This document shows positions 1,872 to 11,187 of a stretch of 51,055 bases of DNA, piece by piece (within the stretch, counting starts at the first letter, position 1; each line of letters begins with the position of its first letter). The DNA comes from a virus. Taxonomy: Duplodnaviria > Caudoviricetes. Below the pieces are notes generated by a model. The model made no database searches and was not told the origin of the DNA. It worked only from the letters and a program-made list of their open reading frames with translations. Made by a program: the position numbers and the translations under genes. The stretch spans positions 1 through 51,055 of the IMG/VR virus record IMGVR_UViG_3300024249_000008. One strand, 5' to 3'.

Positions 1872-3203
1872 ATGATTATTACACAGCAGCAAGGACAAGA
1901 AGAGAGTGCAGCCATGCAGTTCTGGCGTAAACTGATGGAGCAGCATCCAAATATTCATGGAATACTTGTTATTATTGGCTCAGTCATGGGCTTTTTCTTT
2001 AATGGTCACTTTCTGGTAAAGACAACTCAATGGGCGGTTCGCGTAAGTGGTTATGTGGCTGAGAGTGCCCTGCTCGTTGCTGTTTTGTGGATGAGTGCTA
2101 CTAGTGTAGCGCCGGGACTGGTGGAACTTTTTATGTCAGAGCAGGCTATGCAGTATTTTGTGTGGCTGTCTCTCGTTATCCTGGCGCTTATTCCAGAACT
2201 GATTCTTGCTAATGCGGTAGTTAGTGTTATCTGGCACTGGTATCGAGTGAGATTACAACCAAAAAACATTGTGGGTTGGGCATGGGCCCTTCTTTTCAGT
2301 GTGCCTACATGTTTTTTCTTTTATCTTACCTGGGTAACGATTGCTAATCTTGCTAACCATCATGGGAATTTTGTTCAGGCGACTACTGACATTGTGAACC
2401 TCCGATGTCTTGCGGGTTGGATCTACGGATTGCTTTCATTGGTCTATGCTGGCGTGGGTAAAAAATTGCAAAATCTCACACCAATTTTTTCTGTCAATTC
2501 TGTTGCTTCTGCAGAGGTAGATTACAACGTTCTTGCTGAAAAAGTTGGCGAATTGTTAGCACCTAAGATAGCTCAAATCCAGGCAAATTTTGCGGCTAAA
2601 ATTCCAGTGGTAGATTATCAAAAAATTACGTCTGATGTCCTTGCTAATTTGCCTCAAATTGCGCCAGTAAGTGAAGAAGAAATCGTTCAAAAAATAGCAA
2701 ATTCTTTGCAAGAAAATCAAGTTGTTTTGAACGCAGAAATAGATCAAAAATTGTCAAAAGTTCAGGAAGATTTTACTGCTAAAATTGGCGAGATTTCCGC
2801 AAAAAATCAGACAGTGCAATCTTCAATTTCCGAGCAAAAAACAAGTGAAAATTTGCTCTGGACACCTTCAAAAAATGTCTCAAAAACTGAGGGAATTTTT
2901 GATCAATTTGGGCAAGTTTTACAAGGAAAAACAAGTAAAAAAAATACCGATCCTGAGCTAAAAATTGTTCAAAAATCTCCTACAACACAACCGTTAAATT
3001 TATCGGAAAATGCAACAAAAAATTTGATAGGTTTGACTTATCAGGATGCAACAAGATTGCCAATTTGCCAGAAGAAAAACATCAAAGTTTCGGACATAAA
3101 AGTCGCTATAAAATCAGGCGATTTGAAAGCAAAAAGTGATGGATCAGTGGCAAAGTCAGCCATTGAAAATTGGGCAAGAAATTTTAGAGAAAAAGTTTCG
3201 TAG
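1872..3203 (+). CDS. Multi-pass membrane protein with coiled/low-complexity region and a possible C-terminal DNA-binding domain (Spd-like)
   Basis: AAGGAGG RBS before ATG 1872; about 5 hydrophobic segments in the N-terminal half; lies beside the FtsK-like gene. Confidence 0.65.
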   Translation: MIITQQQGQEESAAMQFWRKLMEQHPNIHGILVIIGSVMGFFFNGHFLVKTTQWAVRVSGYVAESALLVAVLWMSATSVAPGLVELFMSEQAMQYFVWLSLVILALIPELILANAVVSVIWHWYRVRLQPKNIVGWAWALLFSVPTCFFFYLTWVTIANLANHHGNFVQATTDIVNLRCLAGWIYGLLSLVYAGVGKKLQNLTPIFSVNSVASAEVDYNVLAEKVGELLAPKIAQIQANFAAKIPVVDYQKITSDVLANLPQIAPVSEEEIVQKIANSLQENQVVLNAEIDQKLSKVQEDFTAKIGEISAKNQTVQSSISEQKTSENLLWTPSKNVSKTEGIFDQFGQVLQGKTSKKNTDPELKIVQKSPTTQPLNLSENATKNLIGLTYQDATRLPICQKKNIKVSDIKVAIKSGDLKAKSDGSVAKSAIENWARNFREKVS

Positions 3204-3218
3204 AAAAGGAGGTAATAC

Positions 3219-3371
3219 ATGGCAACAGACGGCTACTATATTAGCACCATTCTTGACATAGCAACAACAGTTAGTGAATGGGTGTCAGACGTTATCAATG
3301 ATCTGACAAAGACAAAGGAACAGGAAACCGAAGAAGGACAACCGAAAGAGGAAAGAGATTGGAGGGAATAG
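3219..3371 (+). CDS. 50-aa hypothetical protein (not in ORF track)
   Basis: AAGGAGGT RBS; MATDGYYISTILDIATT...; fills the gap between neighbouring genes. Confidence 0.7.
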   Translation: MATDGYYISTILDIATTVSEWVSDVINDLTKTKEQETEEGQPKEERDWRE

Positions 3372-3372
3372 C

Positions 3373-3621
3373 ATGAGACTCGTTTATGATTTTCCGTGGT
3401 CAATGCCTGTTGATTGGCCCGACAATTACAAGCAACTTACTCAGGTTGTCGAGGATGGAGACGAGGAAACGCTTTACATCGATTATCAAGATAAGCATTT
3501 TTCACGCCCGATGACACAGTTAGAAGTGGAGGCAGCAACGACAAGGACTTTTAGACAACACATGGAAGTGAGCAGAGAATACGTTACTTTTGACGTATCG
3601 CATACAAAGCAAACATGCTAA
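3373..3621 (+). CDS. hypothetical protein
   Basis: GGAGG RBS, operon position. Confidence 0.7.
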   Translation: MRLVYDFPWSMPVDWPDNYKQLTQVVEDGDEETLYIDYQDKHFSRPMTQLEVEAATTRTFRQHMEVSREYVTFDVSHTKQTC

Positions 3622-6423: not shown

Positions 6424-6828
6424 ATGGGTCGAGGGACCAAACAGAAAGATATAAATAGTAGTGAAAGGGCAGCATTAGCCCTTTCACTACGGAAACAAGG
6501 ACTTACACTAGAGGAGATTGCCCTTAAATGTGGCTACCAAGATAAGTCAGGCGCTTATCGTGCAATTAAGCGATGTCTTGATGAACTGCCTGTGGAAGAC
6601 GCTGTTGAATTACGTAAGATGGAAGTGATGAGGTTGGATGCGCTTTTAGCAGAGTGTTGGGAATTAGCCATGAACAAAGAGTATCGTTCTCGACTATTTG
6701 CAATGGACAGAGTTCTTGCCATAAGTGAAAGACGCGCCCGGCTACTTGGAATCGAGGTTAGCCCTAATGACGCTCCTAGAGGAGCAACGATTGTACGTGA
6801 GTATGGCGCAAATATAGGTGACGTATGA
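6424..6828 (+). CDS. terS: terminase small subunit
   Basis: N-terminal HTH (LTLEEIALKCGY); ERRARLLG motif; ATGA overlap with terL. Confidence 0.8.
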   Translation: MGRGTKQKDINSSERAALALSLRKQGLTLEEIALKCGYQDKSGAYRAIKRCLDELPVEDAVELRKMEVMRLDALLAECWELAMNKEYRSRLFAMDRVLAISERRARLLGIEVSPNDAPRGATIVREYGANIGDV

Positions 6829-9362
6829 TAGACACCTCTGAAGTCATCATTCGCTATAATCCTCGTGGCTCTGCTCGTGATATCTTCAAAATGCGTGATC
6901 CTGAGCTAATTTTGTCAGGGCCAGCCGGGACGGGCAAGAGCAGATCAATTATTGAAAAGCTGCACTTAGCTGCATTAAAGTATCCCAACGCTCGTATTCT
7001 CATGCTTCGTAAGACACGACGCTCATTGACTGAAAGCGGTATGGTTACGTATTGGGAAAAGATACGTCCTGATCTTGATGGTGTCCAGTGGAAGCCTTCA
7101 ATGCAGCAATATCAATACCCTAATGGCGCTATTATTGCGGTTGGTGGACTCGACAAACCATCAAAAATTATGTCGTCAGAGTGGGATATCATCTACTGTC
7201 AAGAATGTACAGAGTTAAATGAAAATGACTGGGAAGCTTGTAAGATACGACTTAGAAACGGGATTTTGCCGTATCAACAATTGCTAGGTGATTGCAATCC
7301 TGATTCATCGCAACACTGGATATTACTGAGAGCCAATGCAGGCCGATTGGTGATGTTGGAGTCAAAACATGAAGACAATCCAGTGTTGTTTAATGAGCAA
7401 GGCAATAGAACGCTTGAAGGTGATCGCTATCTTAGTATACTTGAGTCTCTGACAGGCGTACGACTTGCACGTTATCGGTATGGGATCTGGGCAAGCTCAG
7501 AGGGAATGGTATACCAGAATGAATGGTCAAGGGCCAATAATCTCATAGACCGATTTACCATACCTCGTACATGGGCTAGGTATCTCAGTATCGACATGGG
7601 CTATACAAATCCATTCGTGTGTCAATGGTTCGCTCAGGATGAGGACGGGAGATTATACCGATACAGGGAAATATACAAAACCCAAACGCTTGTAGAAGAT
7701 CATGCAAAACAAATAGCTCTTTCATCTGGTTGGCTTCATCTCTTACCTAAAAATCACCCGAATCATAGAGATAGACCTGCAGAGAATGCTGACCCATTGC
7801 CACGCGCTATTATTGTAGATCACGACCCGGAAGATTATCGGACGCTTGAGCGGTATTTAGGTTTATATACAACGCCTGCAAAAAAATCAGTGAGTGATGG
7901 TATCCAGGCAGTTGCTACGCGCTTACGCCCTGCAGGTGATGGGAAACCTCGACTCTTTTTTTTACGTGACTCCCTAGTTGAACGTGATCAGAATCTAGCT
8001 GCAAGAAAAAAGCCTACTTGTTTTGAGGAAGAAATTGAAAGTTACGTCTTCAAACAGGGAAGTGATGGATCAAAAGAGGAACCTGTAAAAGAAAATGACC
8101 ACGCATGTCTTGTCTCTGGAACGCTTATAACAACCAATCATGGTGATGTGCCAATAGAACATATACGAGCAGGTGATTATGTCCTAACTCGTACTGGATA
8201 TAGAAGAGTCAAGGCTGCTGGAATGACTGCTAGAGATGCAGAAGTTTATACTATGCAACTATCTGATGGTAGAACATTAACAGGTACAGGAAACCATCCT
8301 ATATATCTAAATAAGTGTAAGTATATCCCATTGCATTCTGTAAGTTATGGTGATATAATAGAGGATATCAAACCGTACTTTGACCAGTACACAGAAAGGT
8401 ATCCTCTATTATGCCAAAGTTTACAACAAAAAGAGTTGAGACCGTTGTTTACAAAGGGATTACATTTAGACGCTATCCCCAATCACCTAATTGGTCAGAT
8501 CGAAACTATTATCGTCCAGGTTCTACGGACATTCTGCAAGGGGTTGGTGCACTCCATCAAGAAATCTGGAAAGATGCTTATGGACCTATTCCAGAAGGGT
8601 GCCATATTCACCACAGAGACGAAAATCCGTCAAATAATGACTTGGCAAATCTCGAATGTCTCACTTCTGAAGAGCATTCAAGATACCATGCAGCAAAACT
8701 ATCAGATGAGCAGAGGGAGTGGAAGAGGGCACACATTGAAGAGATACGCCCTCTTGCGTCTGCTTGGCATAAATCAGAAGAAGGTAAAGCATGGCATAAG
8801 GTCATTGGTGCAATGGCTTATGATAATGCAGAGTATAGAACATATACCTGTGAGTATTGCGGAAACGAATTTCAATCACGTGATTTCAGACCAGACCATG
8901 TACGATTTTGCTCAAGCAACTGCAAGGCTTATGCACGCAAGAAGTCGGGTGTGGATGACATTGCGTCCATCTGTGGGCAATGTGGACAGGAATTCATCCA
9001 CAATAAATATGTCAAGGCTAAATTTTGTTCACAGGAATGTTCTCGAAAATCGCGTTACCCTGCCCCAATCTATGAGACGCGGGTATGTCCAATTTGCAAT
9101 GGATCATTTACAGCAAGAGACTATAGCAAGCAGAAATATTGCTCAAGAACCTGCACAAGTCGTAGCCGTCTCTTCAATAAGCAAAAACAATAATCGTCAG
9201 GATGTTTACAATTTGACTGTGGAAGTTGATACCGTTAGTGAAGGTGAGTACTTTGCTAACGGTATCCTTGTGCATAATTGTGATACTACGAGGTACATGG
9301 TTGCACATCTGGATTTGCAACCAAATACAGTTTCGTATTTTCGGGGTGGGATTTGGAAATGA
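6825..9362 (+). CDS. terL: terminase large subunit (PBSX-like) containing an intein; 454 aa after splicing
   Basis: Walker A GPAGTGKS; DCNP; nuclease IDMGYTNP; splicing restores NDHA-CDTTRY (NDHxxDxxRY motif). Confidence 0.95.
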   Translation: MIDTSEVIIRYNPRGSARDIFKMRDPELILSGPAGTGKSRSIIEKLHLAALKYPNARILMLRKTRRSLTESGMVTYWEKIRPDLDGVQWKPSMQQYQYPNGAIIAVGGLDKPSKIMSSEWDIIYCQECTELNENDWEACKIRLRNGILPYQQLLGDCNPDSSQHWILLRANAGRLVMLESKHEDNPVLFNEQGNRTLEGDRYLSILESLTGVRLARYRYGIWASSEGMVYQNEWSRANNLIDRFTIPRTWARYLSIDMGYTNPFVCQWFAQDEDGRLYRYREIYKTQTLVEDHAKQIALSSGWLHLLPKNHPNHRDRPAENADPLPRAIIVDHDPEDYRTLERYLGLYTTPAKKSVSDGIQAVATRLRPAGDGKPRLFFLRDSLVERDQNLAARKKPTCFEEEIESYVFKQGSDGSKEEPVKENDHACLVSGTLITTNHGDVPIEHIRAGDYVLTRTGYRRVKAAGMTARDAEVYTMQLSDGRTLTGTGNHPIYLNKCKYIPLHSVSYGDIIEDIKPYFDQYTERYPLLCQSLQQKELRPLFTKGLHLDAIPNHLIGQIETIIVQVLRTFCKGLVHSIKKSGKMLMDLFQKGAIFTTETKIRQIMTWQISNVSLLKSIQDTMQQNYQMSRGSGRGHTLKRYALLRLLGINQKKVKHGIRSLVQWLMIMQSIEHIPVSIAETNFNHVISDQTMYDFAQATARLMHARSRVWMTLRPSVGNVDRNSSTINMSRLNFVHRNVLENRVTLPQSMRRGYVQFAMDHLQQETIASRNIAQEPAQVVAVSSISKNNNRQDVYNLTVEVDTVSEGEYFANGILVHNCDTTRYMVAHLDLQPNTVSYFRGGIWK
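8331..8412 (+). promoter_or_regulatory. internal promoter and start-masking hairpin for the nested HNH gene
   Basis: TTGCAT (8331-36)-17 bp-TATAAT (8354-59) with TG extension; perfect 13-bp IR ATAATAGAGGATA (8355-67)/TATCCTCTATTAT (8400-12) pairing the AT of the start codon; AGAAAGG RBS. Confidence 0.8.
8411..9193 (+). CDS. HNH homing endonuclease with C-terminal Zn-finger repeats, nested out of frame inside the intein
   Basis: LHQEIW...GPIPEGCHIHHRDENPSNNDLANLECL...EH (HNH_3-type); three CxxC...(F/Y)CSxxC modules; own RBS and promoter. Confidence 0.92.
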   Translation: MPKFTTKRVETVVYKGITFRRYPQSPNWSDRNYYRPGSTDILQGVGALHQEIWKDAYGPIPEGCHIHHRDENPSNNDLANLECLTSEEHSRYHAAKLSDEQREWKRAHIEEIRPLASAWHKSEEGKAWHKVIGAMAYDNAEYRTYTCEYCGNEFQSRDFRPDHVRFCSSNCKAYARKKSGVDDIASICGQCGQEFIHNKYVKAKFCSQECSRKSRYPAPIYETRVCPICNGSFTARDYSKQKYCSRTCTSRSRLFNKQKQ

Positions 9363-9374
9363 GGAGGTGGAACA

Positions 9375-9641
9375 ATGCGACTCTTTGGCATCAAATGTGA
9401 AGTATGCTGTCACAAACACATGCAATCTGGCGATATGTGGAAACACGATAGAAGAATCCCTAATGGTTGGCTGCTTGTCTTTAATGGCGACCCACAAGAG
9501 ACAGAACCATATCATTTTTGCTCGGTTGAATGCTTACATGCATGGACAGAACGATCTATGAAGAGCAATCCAGCGTCAAAGTCATTTGATCCTGACGTGA
9601 TACTTGCAGAACAAATCAAGGTGAAAACAGCACTACTTTAG
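9375..9641 (+). CDS. small Zn-binding hypothetical protein
   Basis: CEVC...FCSVEC; GAGGAGG RBS. Confidence 0.7.
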   Translation: MRLFGIKCEVCCHKHMQSGDMWKHDRRIPNGWLLVFNGDPQETEPYHFCSVECLHAWTERSMKSNPASKSFDPDVILAEQIKVKTALL

Positions 9642-9678
9642 AGCGAATAGAGATAGATAGTAGGGAGGTGGAAGAGGA

Positions 9679-11187
9679 ATGATAGCACCAACGCAGATCA
9701 ACAATAACACTAATCAGTTAACATCAATGACCATAGCATCGCTTGCGCAAGCACCAACACCACAAGTTGATGTTGAGCGTAAGCACAAGATGCATGAAGC
9801 AATGAAAGCCTACGAGGGTGACTTTCCCAAACCTCTCAAAATCTCCCCAAATCAGCCTGACGACAACGCTATTGTTAACAAAATGCGTACTATTGTCGAG
9901 AAGGGCGTAGCATTCTTATTTGGTCCTGAGCTTGGCATCGAAGCAACTGACGAAACAACATCATCAGCTAAAGACTCTCCGATACAAGACTTTGTTGAAG
10001 GTCTTTGGGGTGACAACGATCAGAAAATGACGCTACTTTCAAAGGTTGCGACGAATGGCGGCTTATTTGGTCAGACATTTGTAAAACTCATTCCAGCACA
10101 GTCAACGATGAAATATCCACGTTTGGTTAATCTGAATCCTTGTAACATTCGCATTGTTACCGATCCTGAAGACTGTGATCTTCATATTGCGTATGTGATT
10201 GAGTATCCAAGTGCCAATGACTGGCAAAAGAAGCAGATTATAGCCCGTGTTGATCCTGATGGATTAGCTGACACTACTGGACAGTATGATTTAGACGATA
10301 CCTGGACTATTGCTAATTATGTGCGTAAAGGTCAGGATAGCGCATGGATACAGGCGGGTACTCCTGTAGAGTGGCCTTATCCGTTTGCCCCTATTTTTAC
10401 CTGTCAGAATACCCCACGTCCTAATGATAACTGGGGTGATCCTGATCTTACAGAAAATCTTATCCATCAAAATAAAGTGCTTAACTTTCTGCTGTCTAAT
10501 CTTATTCGTATTGCAAAATATCATGCCCATCCTATCACCTACGCCACAGGTCTTAGCGCCTCACAGATACAGCTTGCTATAGATGATCTTATTTGCCTCC
10601 CATCACCAGAAAGCAAGATCGAAAAGCTAGCAGCAATGGATAACTTTGGCGGAGTGCTCCAAATCATTGCTAATGTGATGAGTAACATAGATGAGTCGTC
10701 ACATGTGCCGGGAGTCGCATTAGGACGACTAACAGACCTTCCTAAAGGTACAATCTCAGGTGTAGCATTACAACTGCTCTTTCAGCCTCTCATAGAGCGT
10801 ACAACGCAGAAGAGGCGATTATATGGCAGCATGATTAGAGACATTACACGAGCTGCTATGGTTGTGTCTAACATCATCCCTGTTGAACAATATGAAGACT
10901 ATCAAATTGATCTCCGGTGGGCTAACTTGCTCCCCATTGACGATTTAGCAGCCGCCCAAACCGCTCAACTGTTGCAAGCAATCGGTGTTTCACAATCAAC
11001 GTTAATGCAGCAATTAGGCTACGATCCTGATAGCGAGTCAGATAAGACAGACCAGGAAAATGCAAAGAAGGCAACAGCGTTTTCTCGTGGGCAAGGGATG
11101 CCTCCATCATTGCCTAACATGCAGCAACCATCACAAGCAATGCAGCAAGATAAGCAAATGGCTCATGAATCAGGGGAGGGACAGTAG
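9679..11187 (+). CDS. portal protein (SPP1 gp6-like)
   Basis: Size and position after terL; SGVALQLLF motif. Confidence 0.88.
   Translation: MIAPTQINNNTNQLTSMTIASLAQAPTPQVDVERKHKMHEAMKAYEGDFPKPLKISPNQPDDNAIVNKMRTIVEKGVAFLFGPELGIEATDETTSSAKDSPIQDFVEGLWGDNDQKMTLLSKVATNGGLFGQTFVKLIPAQSTMKYPRLVNLNPCNIRIVTDPEDCDLHIAYVIEYPSANDWQKKQIIARVDPDGLADTTGQYDLDDTWTIANYVRKGQDSAWIQAGTPVEWPYPFAPIFTCQNTPRPNDNWGDPDLTENLIHQNKVLNFLLSNLIRIAKYHAHPITYATGLSASQIQLAIDDLICLPSPESKIEKLAAMDNFGGVLQIIANVMSNIDESSHVPGVALGRLTDLPKGTISGVALQLLFQPLIERTTQKRRLYGSMIRDITRAAMVVSNIIPVEQYEDYQIDLRWANLLPIDDLAAAQTAQLLQAIGVSQSTLMQQLGYDPDSESDKTDQENAKKATAFSRGQGMPPSLPNMQQPSQAMQQDKQMAHESGEGQ

What the first reader, a model, noticed from the sequence alone, without database searches (positions are those of the whole stretch)
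8106..9278. Dual-coding intein: homing endonuclease gene nested in another reading frame inside the terminase intein
Seen: TerL has a 391-aa intein with complete splicing blocks (C1, TxxH, HN/C+1) inside the nuclease motif NDHA/CDTTRY. Its middle ~260 aa look like non-protein filler. The same DNA read in another frame (8411-9193) is a clean HNH endonuclease with three Zn-finger modules and its own start and stop. The intein frame has no stop across these 261 codons; a rough (61/64)^260 estimate is about 4e-6, which suggests selection. Known: intein endonucleases (LAGLIDADG, occasionally HNH) are normally in-frame domains of the excised protein. Inference: protein splicing discards the off-frame translation of a separately expressed nuclease gene, so the intein shelters a free-standing nuclease and the nuclease may home the intein. 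The overlap is cheap in this frame relationship because intein stops arise only from HNH codons NTA+A/G or NTG+A, which synonymous changes can mostly avoid. I do not know of this architecture being described, but cannot check the literature.
Basis: partly seen in the sequence, partly recalled or inferred. Interest (0 to 1): 0.97.

Follow-up and report, generated by a model that had tools for sequence, protein, structure and literature searches.

The report
Terminase intein hiding an out-of-frame HNH gene
A phage packaging gene carries a self-removing protein insert (intein) whose middle is really a separate DNA-cutting enzyme gene read in another frame; the arrangement is real and widespread, but this kind of architecture was first reported in 2025.

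Summary
TerL (6825..9362, 845 aa) carries a 391-aa class-1 intein (8106..9278). A 260-aa HNH_3 endonuclease gene (8411..9193) lies in its central ~250 codons, offset by 2 nt on the same strand, and the intein frame stays open.

Given the HNH protein, P(open) is 0.001-0.009.

Comparative evidence settles it:
- 66 of 86 non-redundant homologues sit the same way in Hint/terminase ORFs, always with host frame = HNH frame +1 and no stops. 16 free-standing homologues have 3-25 stops in that frame.
- Changes silent in the HNH frame but altering the filler are about 9 times more frequent than the reverse, and none create stops.
- AF2 folds the HNH frame (pLDDT 89.8) but not the filler (29-58).
- Close TerL relatives are intein-less or carry a homologous 137-aa mini-intein.
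- No intron match.

The architecture is in print: out-of-frame EndoVII-like endonucleases in actinophage inteins (bioRxiv 10.1101/2025.01.02.630785), a hidden HNH in a methylase (PMC11855218), and the dnaX intein (10.64898/2026.09.14.751524). So this is a new variant of a known kind. It uses another nuclease family and is far commoner than the literature's "rare". Splicing, HNH translation and homing remain inferred.

The parts
6825..8105 (+). terL N-extein (427 aa): ATPase domain and most of the nuclease domain, ending ...PVKENDHA
   Evidence: ORF. Terminase_3 and Terminase_6N hits; phrog_2 TerL 6.1e-33. The junction is defined. Intein-less relatives read straight through this site.
8106..9278 (+). 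Class-1 intein, 391 aa (Cys1 ... His-Asn, followed by Cys+1)
   Evidence: Hint_2, Intein_splicing and PT-HINT hits. Invariant C1, T61, H64 and N391 in alignment A1. The AF2 model matches gp41-1, DnaB and RecA mini-inteins: 30 PDB hits at E<=1e-3, best 6qaz at 5.9e-7.
8106..8375 (+). N-terminal splicing (Hint) domain, intein residues 1-90, blocks A and B (CLVSGTLITT ... TGTGNHPIY)
   Evidence: pLDDT 80-95 with beta strands. Aligns at DNA and protein level with the 137-aa mini-intein of L032-L034.
8391..9152 (+). Filler: intein residues 96-349, the +1-frame read-through of the HNH gene, with no stop codon
   Evidence: No Pfam or PHROG family hit other than the Hint models at E<=0.1. pLDDT 29-58. 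Pairwise identity is 0.22 against 0.36 for the HNH frame. Substitutions that change it are tolerated about 9 times more often than those that change the HNH.
8362..9191 (+). Approximate window-specific insert relative to the homologous mini-intein. It holds the translation-initiation region plus the whole HNH ORF. Borders are uncertain by some tens of bases.
   Evidence: DNA alignment A3 of the window intein against the L032 mini-intein. Homology runs over intein nt 1 to about 256 and about 1087 to 1173.
8396..8399 (+). Weak Shine-Dalgarno-like AAGG, 11 nt before the HNH start codon
   Evidence: Stronger SD motifs (AGGAG, AAGGAGG, AGGTG) lie 7-10 nt before the HNH start in L001, L002, L003, L012, L018, L026 and L027. 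Other homologues have AT-rich leaders instead.
8411..9193 (+). HNH homing-endonuclease gene (260 aa plus TAA): N-terminal beta hairpins, HNH_3 catalytic core, WHKSEEGKAWH helix, three CxxC...CSxxC zinc-ribbon modules
   Evidence: HNH_3 2.5e-16; phrog_15471 1.4e-39. AF2 mean pLDDT 89.8. Invariant H67, H68, N76, N80, H89, W119-H129 and four Cys in 18 homologues. The profile hits I-HmuI 1u3e at E 0.0013.
9156..9278 (+). C-terminal splicing domain, intein residues 351-391, blocks F and G (VYNLTVEV...EYFANGILVHN)
   Evidence: pLDDT 77-93 with beta strands. V367, Y368, Y382, A384, N385, L388, V389 and N391 are invariant.
9279..9362 (+). terL C-extein (27 aa plus stop), starting with Cys+1: CDTTRYMVAHLDLQPNTVSYFRGGIWK
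   Evidence: The same tail is contiguous with ..DH(A/G)x in the intein-less relatives L028-L031, L035 and L036.

Best explanation
This is a dual-coding ('non-canonical') intein in the phage large-terminase gene.

How it works:
- Ribosomes starting at the terL ATG (6825) translate one 845-aa precursor.
- The first ~90 and last ~40 residues of the 391-aa insert form a Hint splicing domain. This domain removes the whole insert and rejoins ..NDHA to CDTTRY.., restoring the nuclease-site motif of a 454-aa TerL.
- The ~250 residues between the two halves have no function as protein. They are the read-through, one base out of register, of an independent 260-aa HNH_3 endonuclease gene. That gene has its own start (ATG 8411) and stop (TAA 9191-9193) and is translated by internal initiation on the terL message.
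- The only demand the intein frame places on this stretch is that it contains no stop. In this register that is cheap, because stops arise only from NTA+A/G or NTG+A across HNH codon borders.
- The HNH is most likely a homing endonuclease that cuts intein-less terL alleles of co-infecting relatives, so that repair copies intein plus nuclease gene. The intein in turn makes the insertion harmless to an essential gene.

The arrangement most likely arose when a free-standing HNH gene entered the loop of a mini-intein.

Shown: the anatomy, the conservation of the arrangement, selection on the HNH frame, stop avoidance, and the patchy distribution.
Inferred: splicing, separate translation, the cleavage target and homing.
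For: Anatomy.

Recurrence:
- In the first scan, 16 of 23 loci with an HNH homologue have it inside a 450-840-aa ORF that is always in frame HNH+1. One more (L002) is partial, 2 are in frame and 4 are free-standing.
- In the wider sample, 124 rows collapse to 86 clusters at 90% identity. 66 are nested out of frame, 16 free-standing, 1 in frame and 3 odd.
- Host-frame sequences upstream of the HNH match Hint_2 in 56 of 65 representatives, Terminase_3 in 43 and Terminase_6N in 42.
- The same frame offset of 2 is seen inside the annotated terL of Tetrasphaera phage TJE1, Acinetobacter phage Highwayman and Clostridium phage phiCDHM19. These are named phage records, which I take to be viable isolates.

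Stop avoidance: 0 stops in the +1 frame in all 21 rows tested. Free-standing homologues have 3, 11, 13 and 4, and 3-25 in 16 loci.

Selection, from 17 nested pairs at 70-98.5% identity:
- silent in HNH, non-silent in intein: 161 of 1717 opportunities (0.094)
- non-silent in HNH, silent in intein: 20 of 1860 (0.011)
- creating an intein-frame stop: 0 of 419

Codon-position identity is 0.51/0.53/0.39. The filler-to-HNH identity ratio is 0.63 in nested pairs and 0.58 in free pairs.

Folding: HNH frame pLDDT 89.8. Filler 29-58 against 80-95 for the Hint parts. Hint parts match solved mini-inteins.

Own initiation signals: SD-like motifs 7-10 nt before the start in 7 homologues.

Origin and mobility: of 9 TerL relatives at 46-67% identity, 6 are intein-less. 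3 (near-identical L032-L034) carry a homologous 137-aa mini-intein at the same site without an HNH. Mean pairwise identity is HNH 0.41, intein N-domain 0.35 and extein 0.21.

No RNA-family match at E<=1 in 7800-9600.
Against: - There is no expression, proteomic or biochemical evidence for this locus or any homologue examined.
- The window's own ribosome-binding motif is weak (AAGG at -11) compared with the GGAGG-type sites visible before neighbouring genes.
- No internal promoter-like site exceeds chance: 4 found against 8.6 expected. The HNH would therefore have to be initiated inside a message that is being translated in another frame.
- For the single window locus the open frame is only P = 0.001-0.009.
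- The whole-chain Foldseek search of the HNH model found no significant PDB match. The best hit had E 0.043, and I-HmuI ranked 17 at E 0.79.
- Free-standing homologues often lie beside terminase genes, for example directly upstream of terS-terL in Acinetobacter phage BP10. That also fits a packaging-accessory role.
- HNH identity correlates no better with the intein N-domain (Spearman 0.33) than with the extein (0.46). Movement of intein plus HNH as one unit is therefore not demonstrated.
- The census is biased. The 80 viral loci kept are the best tblastn matches to a nested query, out of 493.
Confidence: 0.85

Rival explanations
1. The nested HNH is not a homing enzyme but a packaging-accessory nuclease of the kind that works with terminases. 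It has been captured inside terL so that it is co-expressed with it.
For: Free-standing homologues lie next to terminase genes: directly upstream of terS-terL in Acinetobacter phage BP10, and near the genome start in Lactobacillus phage CL2, Pseudomonas phage PAE1 and Salmonella phage Shemara (positions listed). HNH proteins beside terminase genes are a known theme (abstract of PMC3592412 in the listing).
Against: - The Pfam family is HNH_3, and the nearest solved relative by profile is the homing endonuclease I-HmuI.
- Close TerL relatives lack both intein and HNH, so the enzyme is dispensable for packaging in this lineage.
- The location inside an intein at a conserved active-site motif, with sporadic presence, is the signature of a selfish element.
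- tblastn also links the core to T4-type intron endonucleases (I-TevIII rows).
Confidence: 0.08
2. The HNH frame is a decaying relic. An endonuclease gene once invaded a mini-intein but is no longer translated, and only the intein frame matters.
For: The initiation signal in the window is weak. There is no internal promoter signal and no expression data. Mini-inteins without an HNH exist at the same site.
Against: - Purifying selection acts on the HNH frame, not on the filler: 0.011 against 0.094 substitutions per opportunity.
- Catalytic and zinc-binding residues are invariant in 18 homologues that share 29-51% identity with the window's HNH.
- The ORF is intact in all 66 nested clusters.
- The AF2 model is confident.
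Confidence: 0.04
3. The HNH is made not from its own start but by -1 ribosomal frameshifting from the intein frame. This would give a TerL(N)-intein(N)-HNH fusion.
For: The HNH frame is the -1 frame of the intein frame. In the GC-rich Tetrasphaera phage TJE1 the HNH frame is open for about 90 codons upstream of the conserved core.
Against: - In the window the HNH frame opens only 9 codons before ATG 8411. I see no X XXY YYZ heptamer in 8384-8413 (read by eye).
- Every nested homologue examined has an ATG, GTG or TTG 10-20 codons before the conserved Gly, several of them with SD motifs.
- Free-standing homologues start at the equivalent place.
Confidence: 0.02
4. Artefact or intron. Either two compensating assembly indels hide an ordinary in-frame HNH intein, or the stretch is a self-splicing intron carrying an ORF.
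For: In-frame versions of the same HNH do exist in an intein at the same terL site (L016/L017). HNH genes are common in group I introns (general knowledge).
Against: - The same out-of-frame arrangement recurs in 66 clusters from many samples and in GenBank phage records.
- Independent contigs are identical across the 5' junction.
- Indels would not leave the other frame open.
- There is no Rfam match at E<=1.
- An intron would not need an open host frame.
Confidence: 0.01

Closest known systems
[quoted passage not shown]
   Same: - Same-strand endonuclease ORF between the splicing blocks, 'in reading frame 3 relative to the intein', which is the offset seen here.
- Hosts include the terminase large subunit.
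- The in-frame translation is unstructured while the alternate frame folds.
- The authors propose invasion of an intein by a free-standing endonuclease gene, with split inteins and later in-frame fusion as possible outcomes.
   Different: - Their nuclease is EndoVII-like (IPR004211; it matches PDB 1E7D over residues 1-67). Here it is HNH_3 with a WHKSEEGK helix and 1-3 zinc ribbons, and no Endonuclease_7 hit appears at E<=0.1.
- Their survey is limited to PhagesDB and calls the architecture rare. Here it is the majority state of the family: 66 of 86 clusters, in contigs attributed to many phyla.
ShiLan domain: hidden out-of-frame HNH in a mycobacteriophage DNA methylase (Arsenault et al., Genes 2025, PMC11855218; I read the abstract, section 19 and found passages)
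   Same: [quoted passage not shown] The host frame stays free of stops. The element has its own start and a TAA stop at the end of the insert, a sporadic distribution, and the same open question of how it is translated.
   Different: ShiLan has no splicing domains and is thought to remain in the methylase as a loop. Here the insert is flanked by a complete intein and sits in an essential gene. I did not test sequence relatedness of the two HNHs.
Cyanobacterial dnaX intein with an out-of-frame LAGLIDADG endonuclease (Phillips et al., bioRxiv 10.64898/2026.09.14.751524; I read the abstract and found passages). The non-canonical intein goes back to Gorbalenya 1998, as cited there; I did not read that paper.
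   Same: Overlapping frames for splicing and homing. A disordered in-frame region against a confident alternate-frame fold. Purifying selection on the endonuclease frame. Secondary invasion of a mini-intein is proposed.
   Different: A cellular gene and a LAGLIDADG enzyme.
'Fractured genes': split inteins with a free-standing endonuclease gene between the halves (Dassa et al. 2009, PMC2677866; I saw the abstract only, in the listing)
   Same: An endonuclease gene occupies the position of the intein's homing domain as an independent ORF. A relative of the window's HNH shows exactly this in Vibrio phage 1.238.A: 14 stops in the terL frame, then a separate IntC-extein ORF.
   Different: In the window the host frame is continuous, so splicing would be in cis and no second start is needed. 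Their endonuclease family is also different (VSR-like, as cited).
[quoted passage not shown]
   Same: The same catalytic family. L016/L017 carry a homologue of this very HNH in frame, in an intein at the same terL site. The profile of the family hits I-HmuI at E 0.0013.
   Different: In the window the nuclease is not part of the excised polypeptide.

Membership tests
Class-1 intein (Hint fold) | N-terminal nucleophile (Cys1) and block B TxxH | tested here: met
   CLVSG... at residue 1. T61 and H64 are invariant in 14 aligned inteins.
Class-1 intein (Hint fold) | C-terminal His-Asn followed by a Cys/Ser/Thr +1 residue | tested here: met
   ...ILVHN|CDTTRY. N391 is invariant. The penultimate His is replaced by Ser or Lys in some homologues.
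Class-1 intein (Hint fold) | Hint fold of the splicing domain | tested here: met
   AF2 pLDDT is 80-95 for residues 1-90 and 77-93 for 351-391. Foldseek gives 30 PDB hits at E<=1e-3, all inteins, BIL or hedgehog domains. The Pfam Intein_splicing score of 27.8-30.7 bits is below its 35.8 cut-off, while Hint_2 is above its own.
Class-1 intein (Hint fold) | In-frame insertion at a conserved host site, with intein-free alleles in relatives | tested here: met
   6 of 9 TerL relatives read ..DH(A/G)xD..RY without an insert. 3 carry a mini-intein at the same site.
Class-1 intein (Hint fold) | Protein splicing actually occurs | not testable with these tools
   Inferred from conserved blocks and from carriers that are named phage isolates.
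HNH_3 / His-Me finger endonuclease | Profile match above the curated threshold | tested here: met
   PF13392 at 59.5 bits against a cut-off of 24.8. phrog_15471 at 1.4e-39.
HNH_3 / His-Me finger endonuclease | Conserved catalytic His / Asn / His | tested here: met
   H67, H68, N76, N80 and H89 are invariant in 18 homologues. Which of them is the general base is assigned from recall, not tested.
HNH_3 / His-Me finger endonuclease | Structural match to a solved HNH enzyme | tested here: inconclusive
   Whole-chain Foldseek: best E 0.043, with I-HmuI at rank 17 and E 0.79. The sequence profile hits I-HmuI at E 0.0013.
Non-canonical intein with out-of-frame same-strand homing endonuclease (Gosselin et al. 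2025) | Endonuclease ORF between the splicing blocks in another frame of the same strand, with the host frame open through it | tested here: met
   The offset of 2 matches their 'frame 3'.
Non-canonical intein with out-of-frame same-strand homing endonuclease (Gosselin et al. 2025) | Selection on the endonuclease frame, not on the in-frame filler | tested here: met
   Rates of 0.094 against 0.011 per opportunity, and 0 of 419 stop-creating changes.
Non-canonical intein with out-of-frame same-strand homing endonuclease (Gosselin et al. 2025) | Endonuclease VII-like nuclease (IPR004211) | tested here: not met
   No Endonuclease_7 hit at E<=0.1, whereas HNH_3 is strong. It is therefore a variant of the kind, not a member of their described group.
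Group I intron carrying an HNH ORF | Ribozyme core, with the host frame interrupted | tested here: not met
   No Rfam match at E<=1 in 7800-9600. The host frame is open.
Fractured gene / split intein with a free-standing endonuclease (Dassa 2009) | Host gene broken into two ORFs around the endonuclease gene | tested here: not met
   There is a single 845-aa ORF in the window. The feature is met in the relative from Vibrio phage 1.238.A.
ShiLan-type hidden HNH insertion | No splicing domains; the insert is retained in the host protein | tested here: not met
   Complete Hint blocks flank the insert.

The most novel reading that the evidence does not exclude
Out-of-frame residence in terminase inteins is not a rare accident. 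It is the main, long-lived lifestyle of a whole HNH family, marked by the WHKSEEGKxWH helix plus zinc ribbons. This family occurs in viruses attributed to many bacterial phyla and possibly archaea. The fixed 'host frame = nuclease frame +1' register would be a general safe-harbour rule for homing-endonuclease genes entering protein-coding DNA. The same register is reported independently for the EndoVII-like intein tenants and the ShiLan HNH. Free-standing copies beside terminase genes, split-intein ('fractured') forms and in-frame forms would all be repeated derivatives of this state.
Probability: 0.45. Interest if true: 0.6.

Novelty: new variant of a known kind. Interest (0 to 1): 0.45.

Why it matters
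- **Annotation.** Gene callers report one long terL and miss the nuclease. In TJE1, Highwayman and phiCDHM19 the HNH is unannotated. None of the 9 papers in the library that name these phages contains the word 'intein'. Hundreds of homing endonucleases are probably invisible in phage and metagenome annotation.
- **Evolution.** One nuclease family shows every stage of the model proposed for how inteins acquire endonucleases. These are free-standing, nested out of frame, split and in frame, together with the empty mini-intein and the empty site among close relatives.
- **Overlapping genes.** This is a natural, replicated example in which one frame is selected only for the absence of stops. That makes it useful for calibrating methods that detect dual coding.
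- **Prevalence.** It tempers the published view that the architecture is rare.

Tried and rejected
- blastn of the whole terL against GenBank phages found no match.
- The whole-chain Foldseek search of the HNH model gave no significant PDB hit. I rely on Pfam, PHROGs and the profile hit to I-HmuI instead.
- No RNA holder was listed among the sequencing runs, so nothing can be said about expression. Runs X2-X4 gave only 151-nt pieces, and the 3' junction (around 9190) is covered only by X1, the possible source.
- Identity correlations (Spearman HNH~intein 0.33, HNH~extein 0.46, intein~extein 0.25) did not show that intein and HNH travel as a unit. I make no such claim.
- The HNH tree is a 'quick' tree. 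Only 13 of 79 inner branches are starred and there is no root, so I do not infer the direction of change between nested and free states. Five rows under 140 aa were dropped before the tree.
- My regular expression mis-placed the intein start of L026 (Highwayman). That row's 127-aa length is wrong, and I use only the frame offset.
- In one search the motif filter left 16 rows as 'open +1 frame, no motifs'. I reclassified 11 of their 14 clusters as nested by reading the junctions printed. This is a judgement by eye.
- Pfam on host sequences reports per-family counts only. I do not know how many of the 65 have at least one terminase family.
- The promoter scan found fewer sites than chance.
- Supplements of the three papers were closed. 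They may list cases that overlap mine.
- I did not test whether the window's HNH is related to the ShiLan HNH, and I did not examine 413 of the 493 IMG/VR matches.

Full report
**What is there.** The window is a whole IMG/VR virus record of 51 kb.
- ORF 6825..9362 (+) encodes 845 aa. A second ORF, 8411..9193 (+), encodes 260 aa and lies entirely inside it, offset by 2 nt.
- The long ORF matches Terminase_3, Terminase_6N and phrog_2 (terminase large subunit). From residue 428 it matches Hint-type models.
- The nested ORF matches HNH_3 well above the curated threshold (59.5 against 24.8 bits) and phrog_15471 'HNH endonuclease' at 1.4e-39.
- The intein runs 8106..9278 (391 aa), with junctions ..NDHA|CLVSG...ILVHN|CDTTRY.., leaving 454 aa of extein.

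In this register a stop can arise only where an HNH codon ending in TA or TG is followed by A or G.
- Keeping the HNH protein fixed, 2.9-5.3 stops are expected. The chance of none is 0.0087 (permuting its own synonymous codons), 0.0013 (resampling with the window's codon usage) or 0.0074 (shuffling codons).
- The other same-strand frame has 23 stops.
- Alone, the locus is suggestive rather than overwhelming.

**Comparative evidence.**
- A scan of viral contigs with the HNH protein gave 23 loci. In 16 the homologue lies inside a 450-840-aa ORF that is always in frame HNH+1. One (L002) is partial, two near-identical loci have it in frame, and four are free-standing.
- A wider scan with the family alignment found 493 relatives in viral contigs, of which the best 80 were kept, and 21 in genome contigs.
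- All 124 rows collapse to 86 clusters at 90% identity: 66 nested out of frame, 16 free-standing, 1 in frame and 3 odd. Eleven of the 66 were assigned by reading the junctions printed.
- The host-frame sequence upstream matches Hint_2 in 56 of 65 representatives, Terminase_3 in 43 and Terminase_6N in 42.
- The same arrangement, with the same offset, lies unannotated inside the terL CDS of Tetrasphaera phage TJE1, Acinetobacter phage Highwayman and Clostridium phage phiCDHM19.
- All 21 rows tested have 0 stops in the host frame. Free-standing homologues have 3-25.
- The sample is biased towards relatives of a nested query, so 66 of 86 is not a population frequency.

**Which frame is under selection?**
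- Across 136 nested pairs, amino-acid identity is 0.36 in the HNH frame and 0.22 in the filler frame. Identity by HNH codon position is 0.51/0.53/0.39. The filler-to-HNH ratio (0.63) is close to that of free-standing pairs (0.58, 6 pairs), so the filler has little conservation of its own.
- In 17 closer nested pairs (70-98.5% identity), changes silent for the HNH but altering the filler occur at 161 of 1717 opportunities. The reverse occurs at 20 of 1860. Changes that would create a stop in the intein frame occur at 0 of 419. The pairs are not phylogenetically independent.
- AF2 gives mean pLDDT 89.8 for the HNH frame. For the intein frame it gives 80-95 for residues 1-90, 77-93 for residues 351-391, and 29-58 for residues 96-349.
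- The confident parts match solved mini-inteins: 6qaz at E 5.9e-7, and 30 hits at E<=1e-3.
- C1, T61/H64 and N391 are invariant in 14 inteins. The HNH catalytic His/Asn/His and four Cys are invariant in 18 homologues.

**Origin and mobility.**
- Nine TerL relatives at 46-67% identity were found with the N-extein. Six are intein-less and read ..DH(A/G)xD..RY straight through.
- Three near-identical loci (L032-L034) carry a 137-aa mini-intein at the same site. It aligns with the window's splicing domains (56% identity) and lacks the HNH.
- At DNA level the window differs from it by an insert of about 830 nt (roughly 8362-9191). That insert is the initiation region plus the HNH ORF.
- The same HNH family also occurs in frame in an intein at the same site (L016/L017).
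- It occurs free-standing directly upstream of terS-terL in Acinetobacter phage BP10.
- It occurs between the halves of a split terL in Vibrio phage 1.238.A, where the terL frame has 14 stops across it.
- It occurs as a remnant cassette behind an intact intein-less terL (L002).
- On an unrooted, weakly supported tree the free forms are scattered among nested ones: 10 state changes against 17.8 in shuffles. The direction of change cannot be told.

**How the HNH would be made.**
- In the window the HNH frame opens 9 codons before ATG 8411, which is preceded by a weak AAGG at -11.
- Seven homologues have clear SD motifs 7-10 nt before an ATG or GTG at the equivalent position. Others have AT-rich leaders.
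- No promoter-like site exceeds chance, and no known RNA family, intron included, matches.
- Internal initiation on the terL message is therefore the most likely route. It is not shown.

**Sequence quality.** A contig of run X1, the possible source, is identical over 6800-9700. Three other soil studies give identical 151-nt pieces within 7865-8841, two of them across the 5' frame junction. No indels were seen.

**What is known.**
- Gosselin, Arsenault and Gogarten (bioRxiv 10.1101/2025.01.02.630785) report actinophage inteins, including ones in the terminase large subunit. Their homing endonuclease is encoded on the opposite strand or, for an EndoVII-like enzyme, 'in reading frame 3 relative to the intein'. 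They propose invasion by free-standing endonuclease genes.
- Arsenault et al. (PMC11855218) describe a hidden third-frame HNH with zinc fingers in a methylase insertion that has no splicing domains.
- Phillips et al. (bioRxiv 10.64898/2026.09.14.751524) describe the out-of-frame LAGLIDADG of the cyanobacterial dnaX intein, with selection analyses like mine.
- Searches for intein + out-of-frame + homing endonuclease, for intein/alternative reading frame/terminase, and for the carrier phages' names with 'intein' found no report of an HNH_3-type out-of-frame tenant of terL inteins.
- The supplements were closed and the library lacks most subscription journals.

**Verdict.** It is a new variant of a recently described kind, not a new kind.

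- a different nuclease family in the same architecture;
- the same frame register as the two published same-strand cases that use the 'frame 3' wording;
- evidence that the arrangement is common and is the majority context in the sample examined;
- a full set of evolutionary states within one family.

Splicing, separate translation, target site and homing remain to be shown experimentally.

Noticed in passing
L002:1592-3734 (the same contig appears again as L042): A complete intein-less terL (447 aa) is followed at once by a cassette. The cassette holds a tail of an intein N-domain, an HNH gene with AAGGAGG plus ATG whose +1 frame is still open, no block F/G, and a duplicated terL C-terminal tail (..DTDRYGVASFDLTPNAVTYYKNIWR). 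It looks like a dual-coding intein fragment recombined downstream of an intact terL. L092 has a similar 274-aa remnant.
   Followed up: partly
L037:3-3374 (Vibrio phage 1.238.A, NC_055735.1): A split ('fractured') version of the arrangement. terL plus the intein N-domain ends at 2522. The HNH gene is at 2384-3118 in the same offset-2 register, but the terL frame has 14 stops across it. A separate 'hint domain protein' ORF (3030-3374) then carries ..VVVHN|CDT.. and the C-extein. The HNH itself is unannotated. By eye, the upstream terL part also holds LAGLIDADG-like motifs, possibly a second intein.
   Followed up: partly
L038:2495-4954 (Acinetobacter phage BP10) versus L026:996-3278 (Acinetobacter phage Highwayman): Two Acinetobacter phages of about 45 kb carry homologues of the same HNH in different contexts. 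One is free-standing directly upstream of terS-terL, the other nested out of frame inside terL. This pair would be good for testing homing against a packaging role.
   Followed up: no
L133, L137 (genome contigs): Nested copies occur on contigs binned as an archaeon and as a Candidatus Woesearchaeota MAG. The L133 host ORF is 1138 aa. The contigs are short (4.5 and 14 kb), so binning could be wrong.
   Followed up: no
L094:2915-4273: The HNH is nested in a host-frame segment that has the C-terminal ..ILVHN|CSDTLRY junction but starts only 28 codons before the HNH. The N-terminal part of the intein is missing or lies in another frame. This may be another split form or a frameshift.
   Followed up: no
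window:9375-9641: An 88-aa Cys/His-rich ORF (..CEVCCHKH...CSVEC..) with a strong GGAGGTGG ribosome-binding site lies between terL and the portal gene (9679..11187). I did not search its function.
   Followed up: no
L016:1573-3612 and L017:2789-4828: A 680-aa TerL with a 348-aa intein at the same site, in which a homologue of this HNH (..AWHKSEEGKKWH.., two zinc ribbons) is in frame. This is the fused state predicted in the 2025 preprint.
   Followed up: partly
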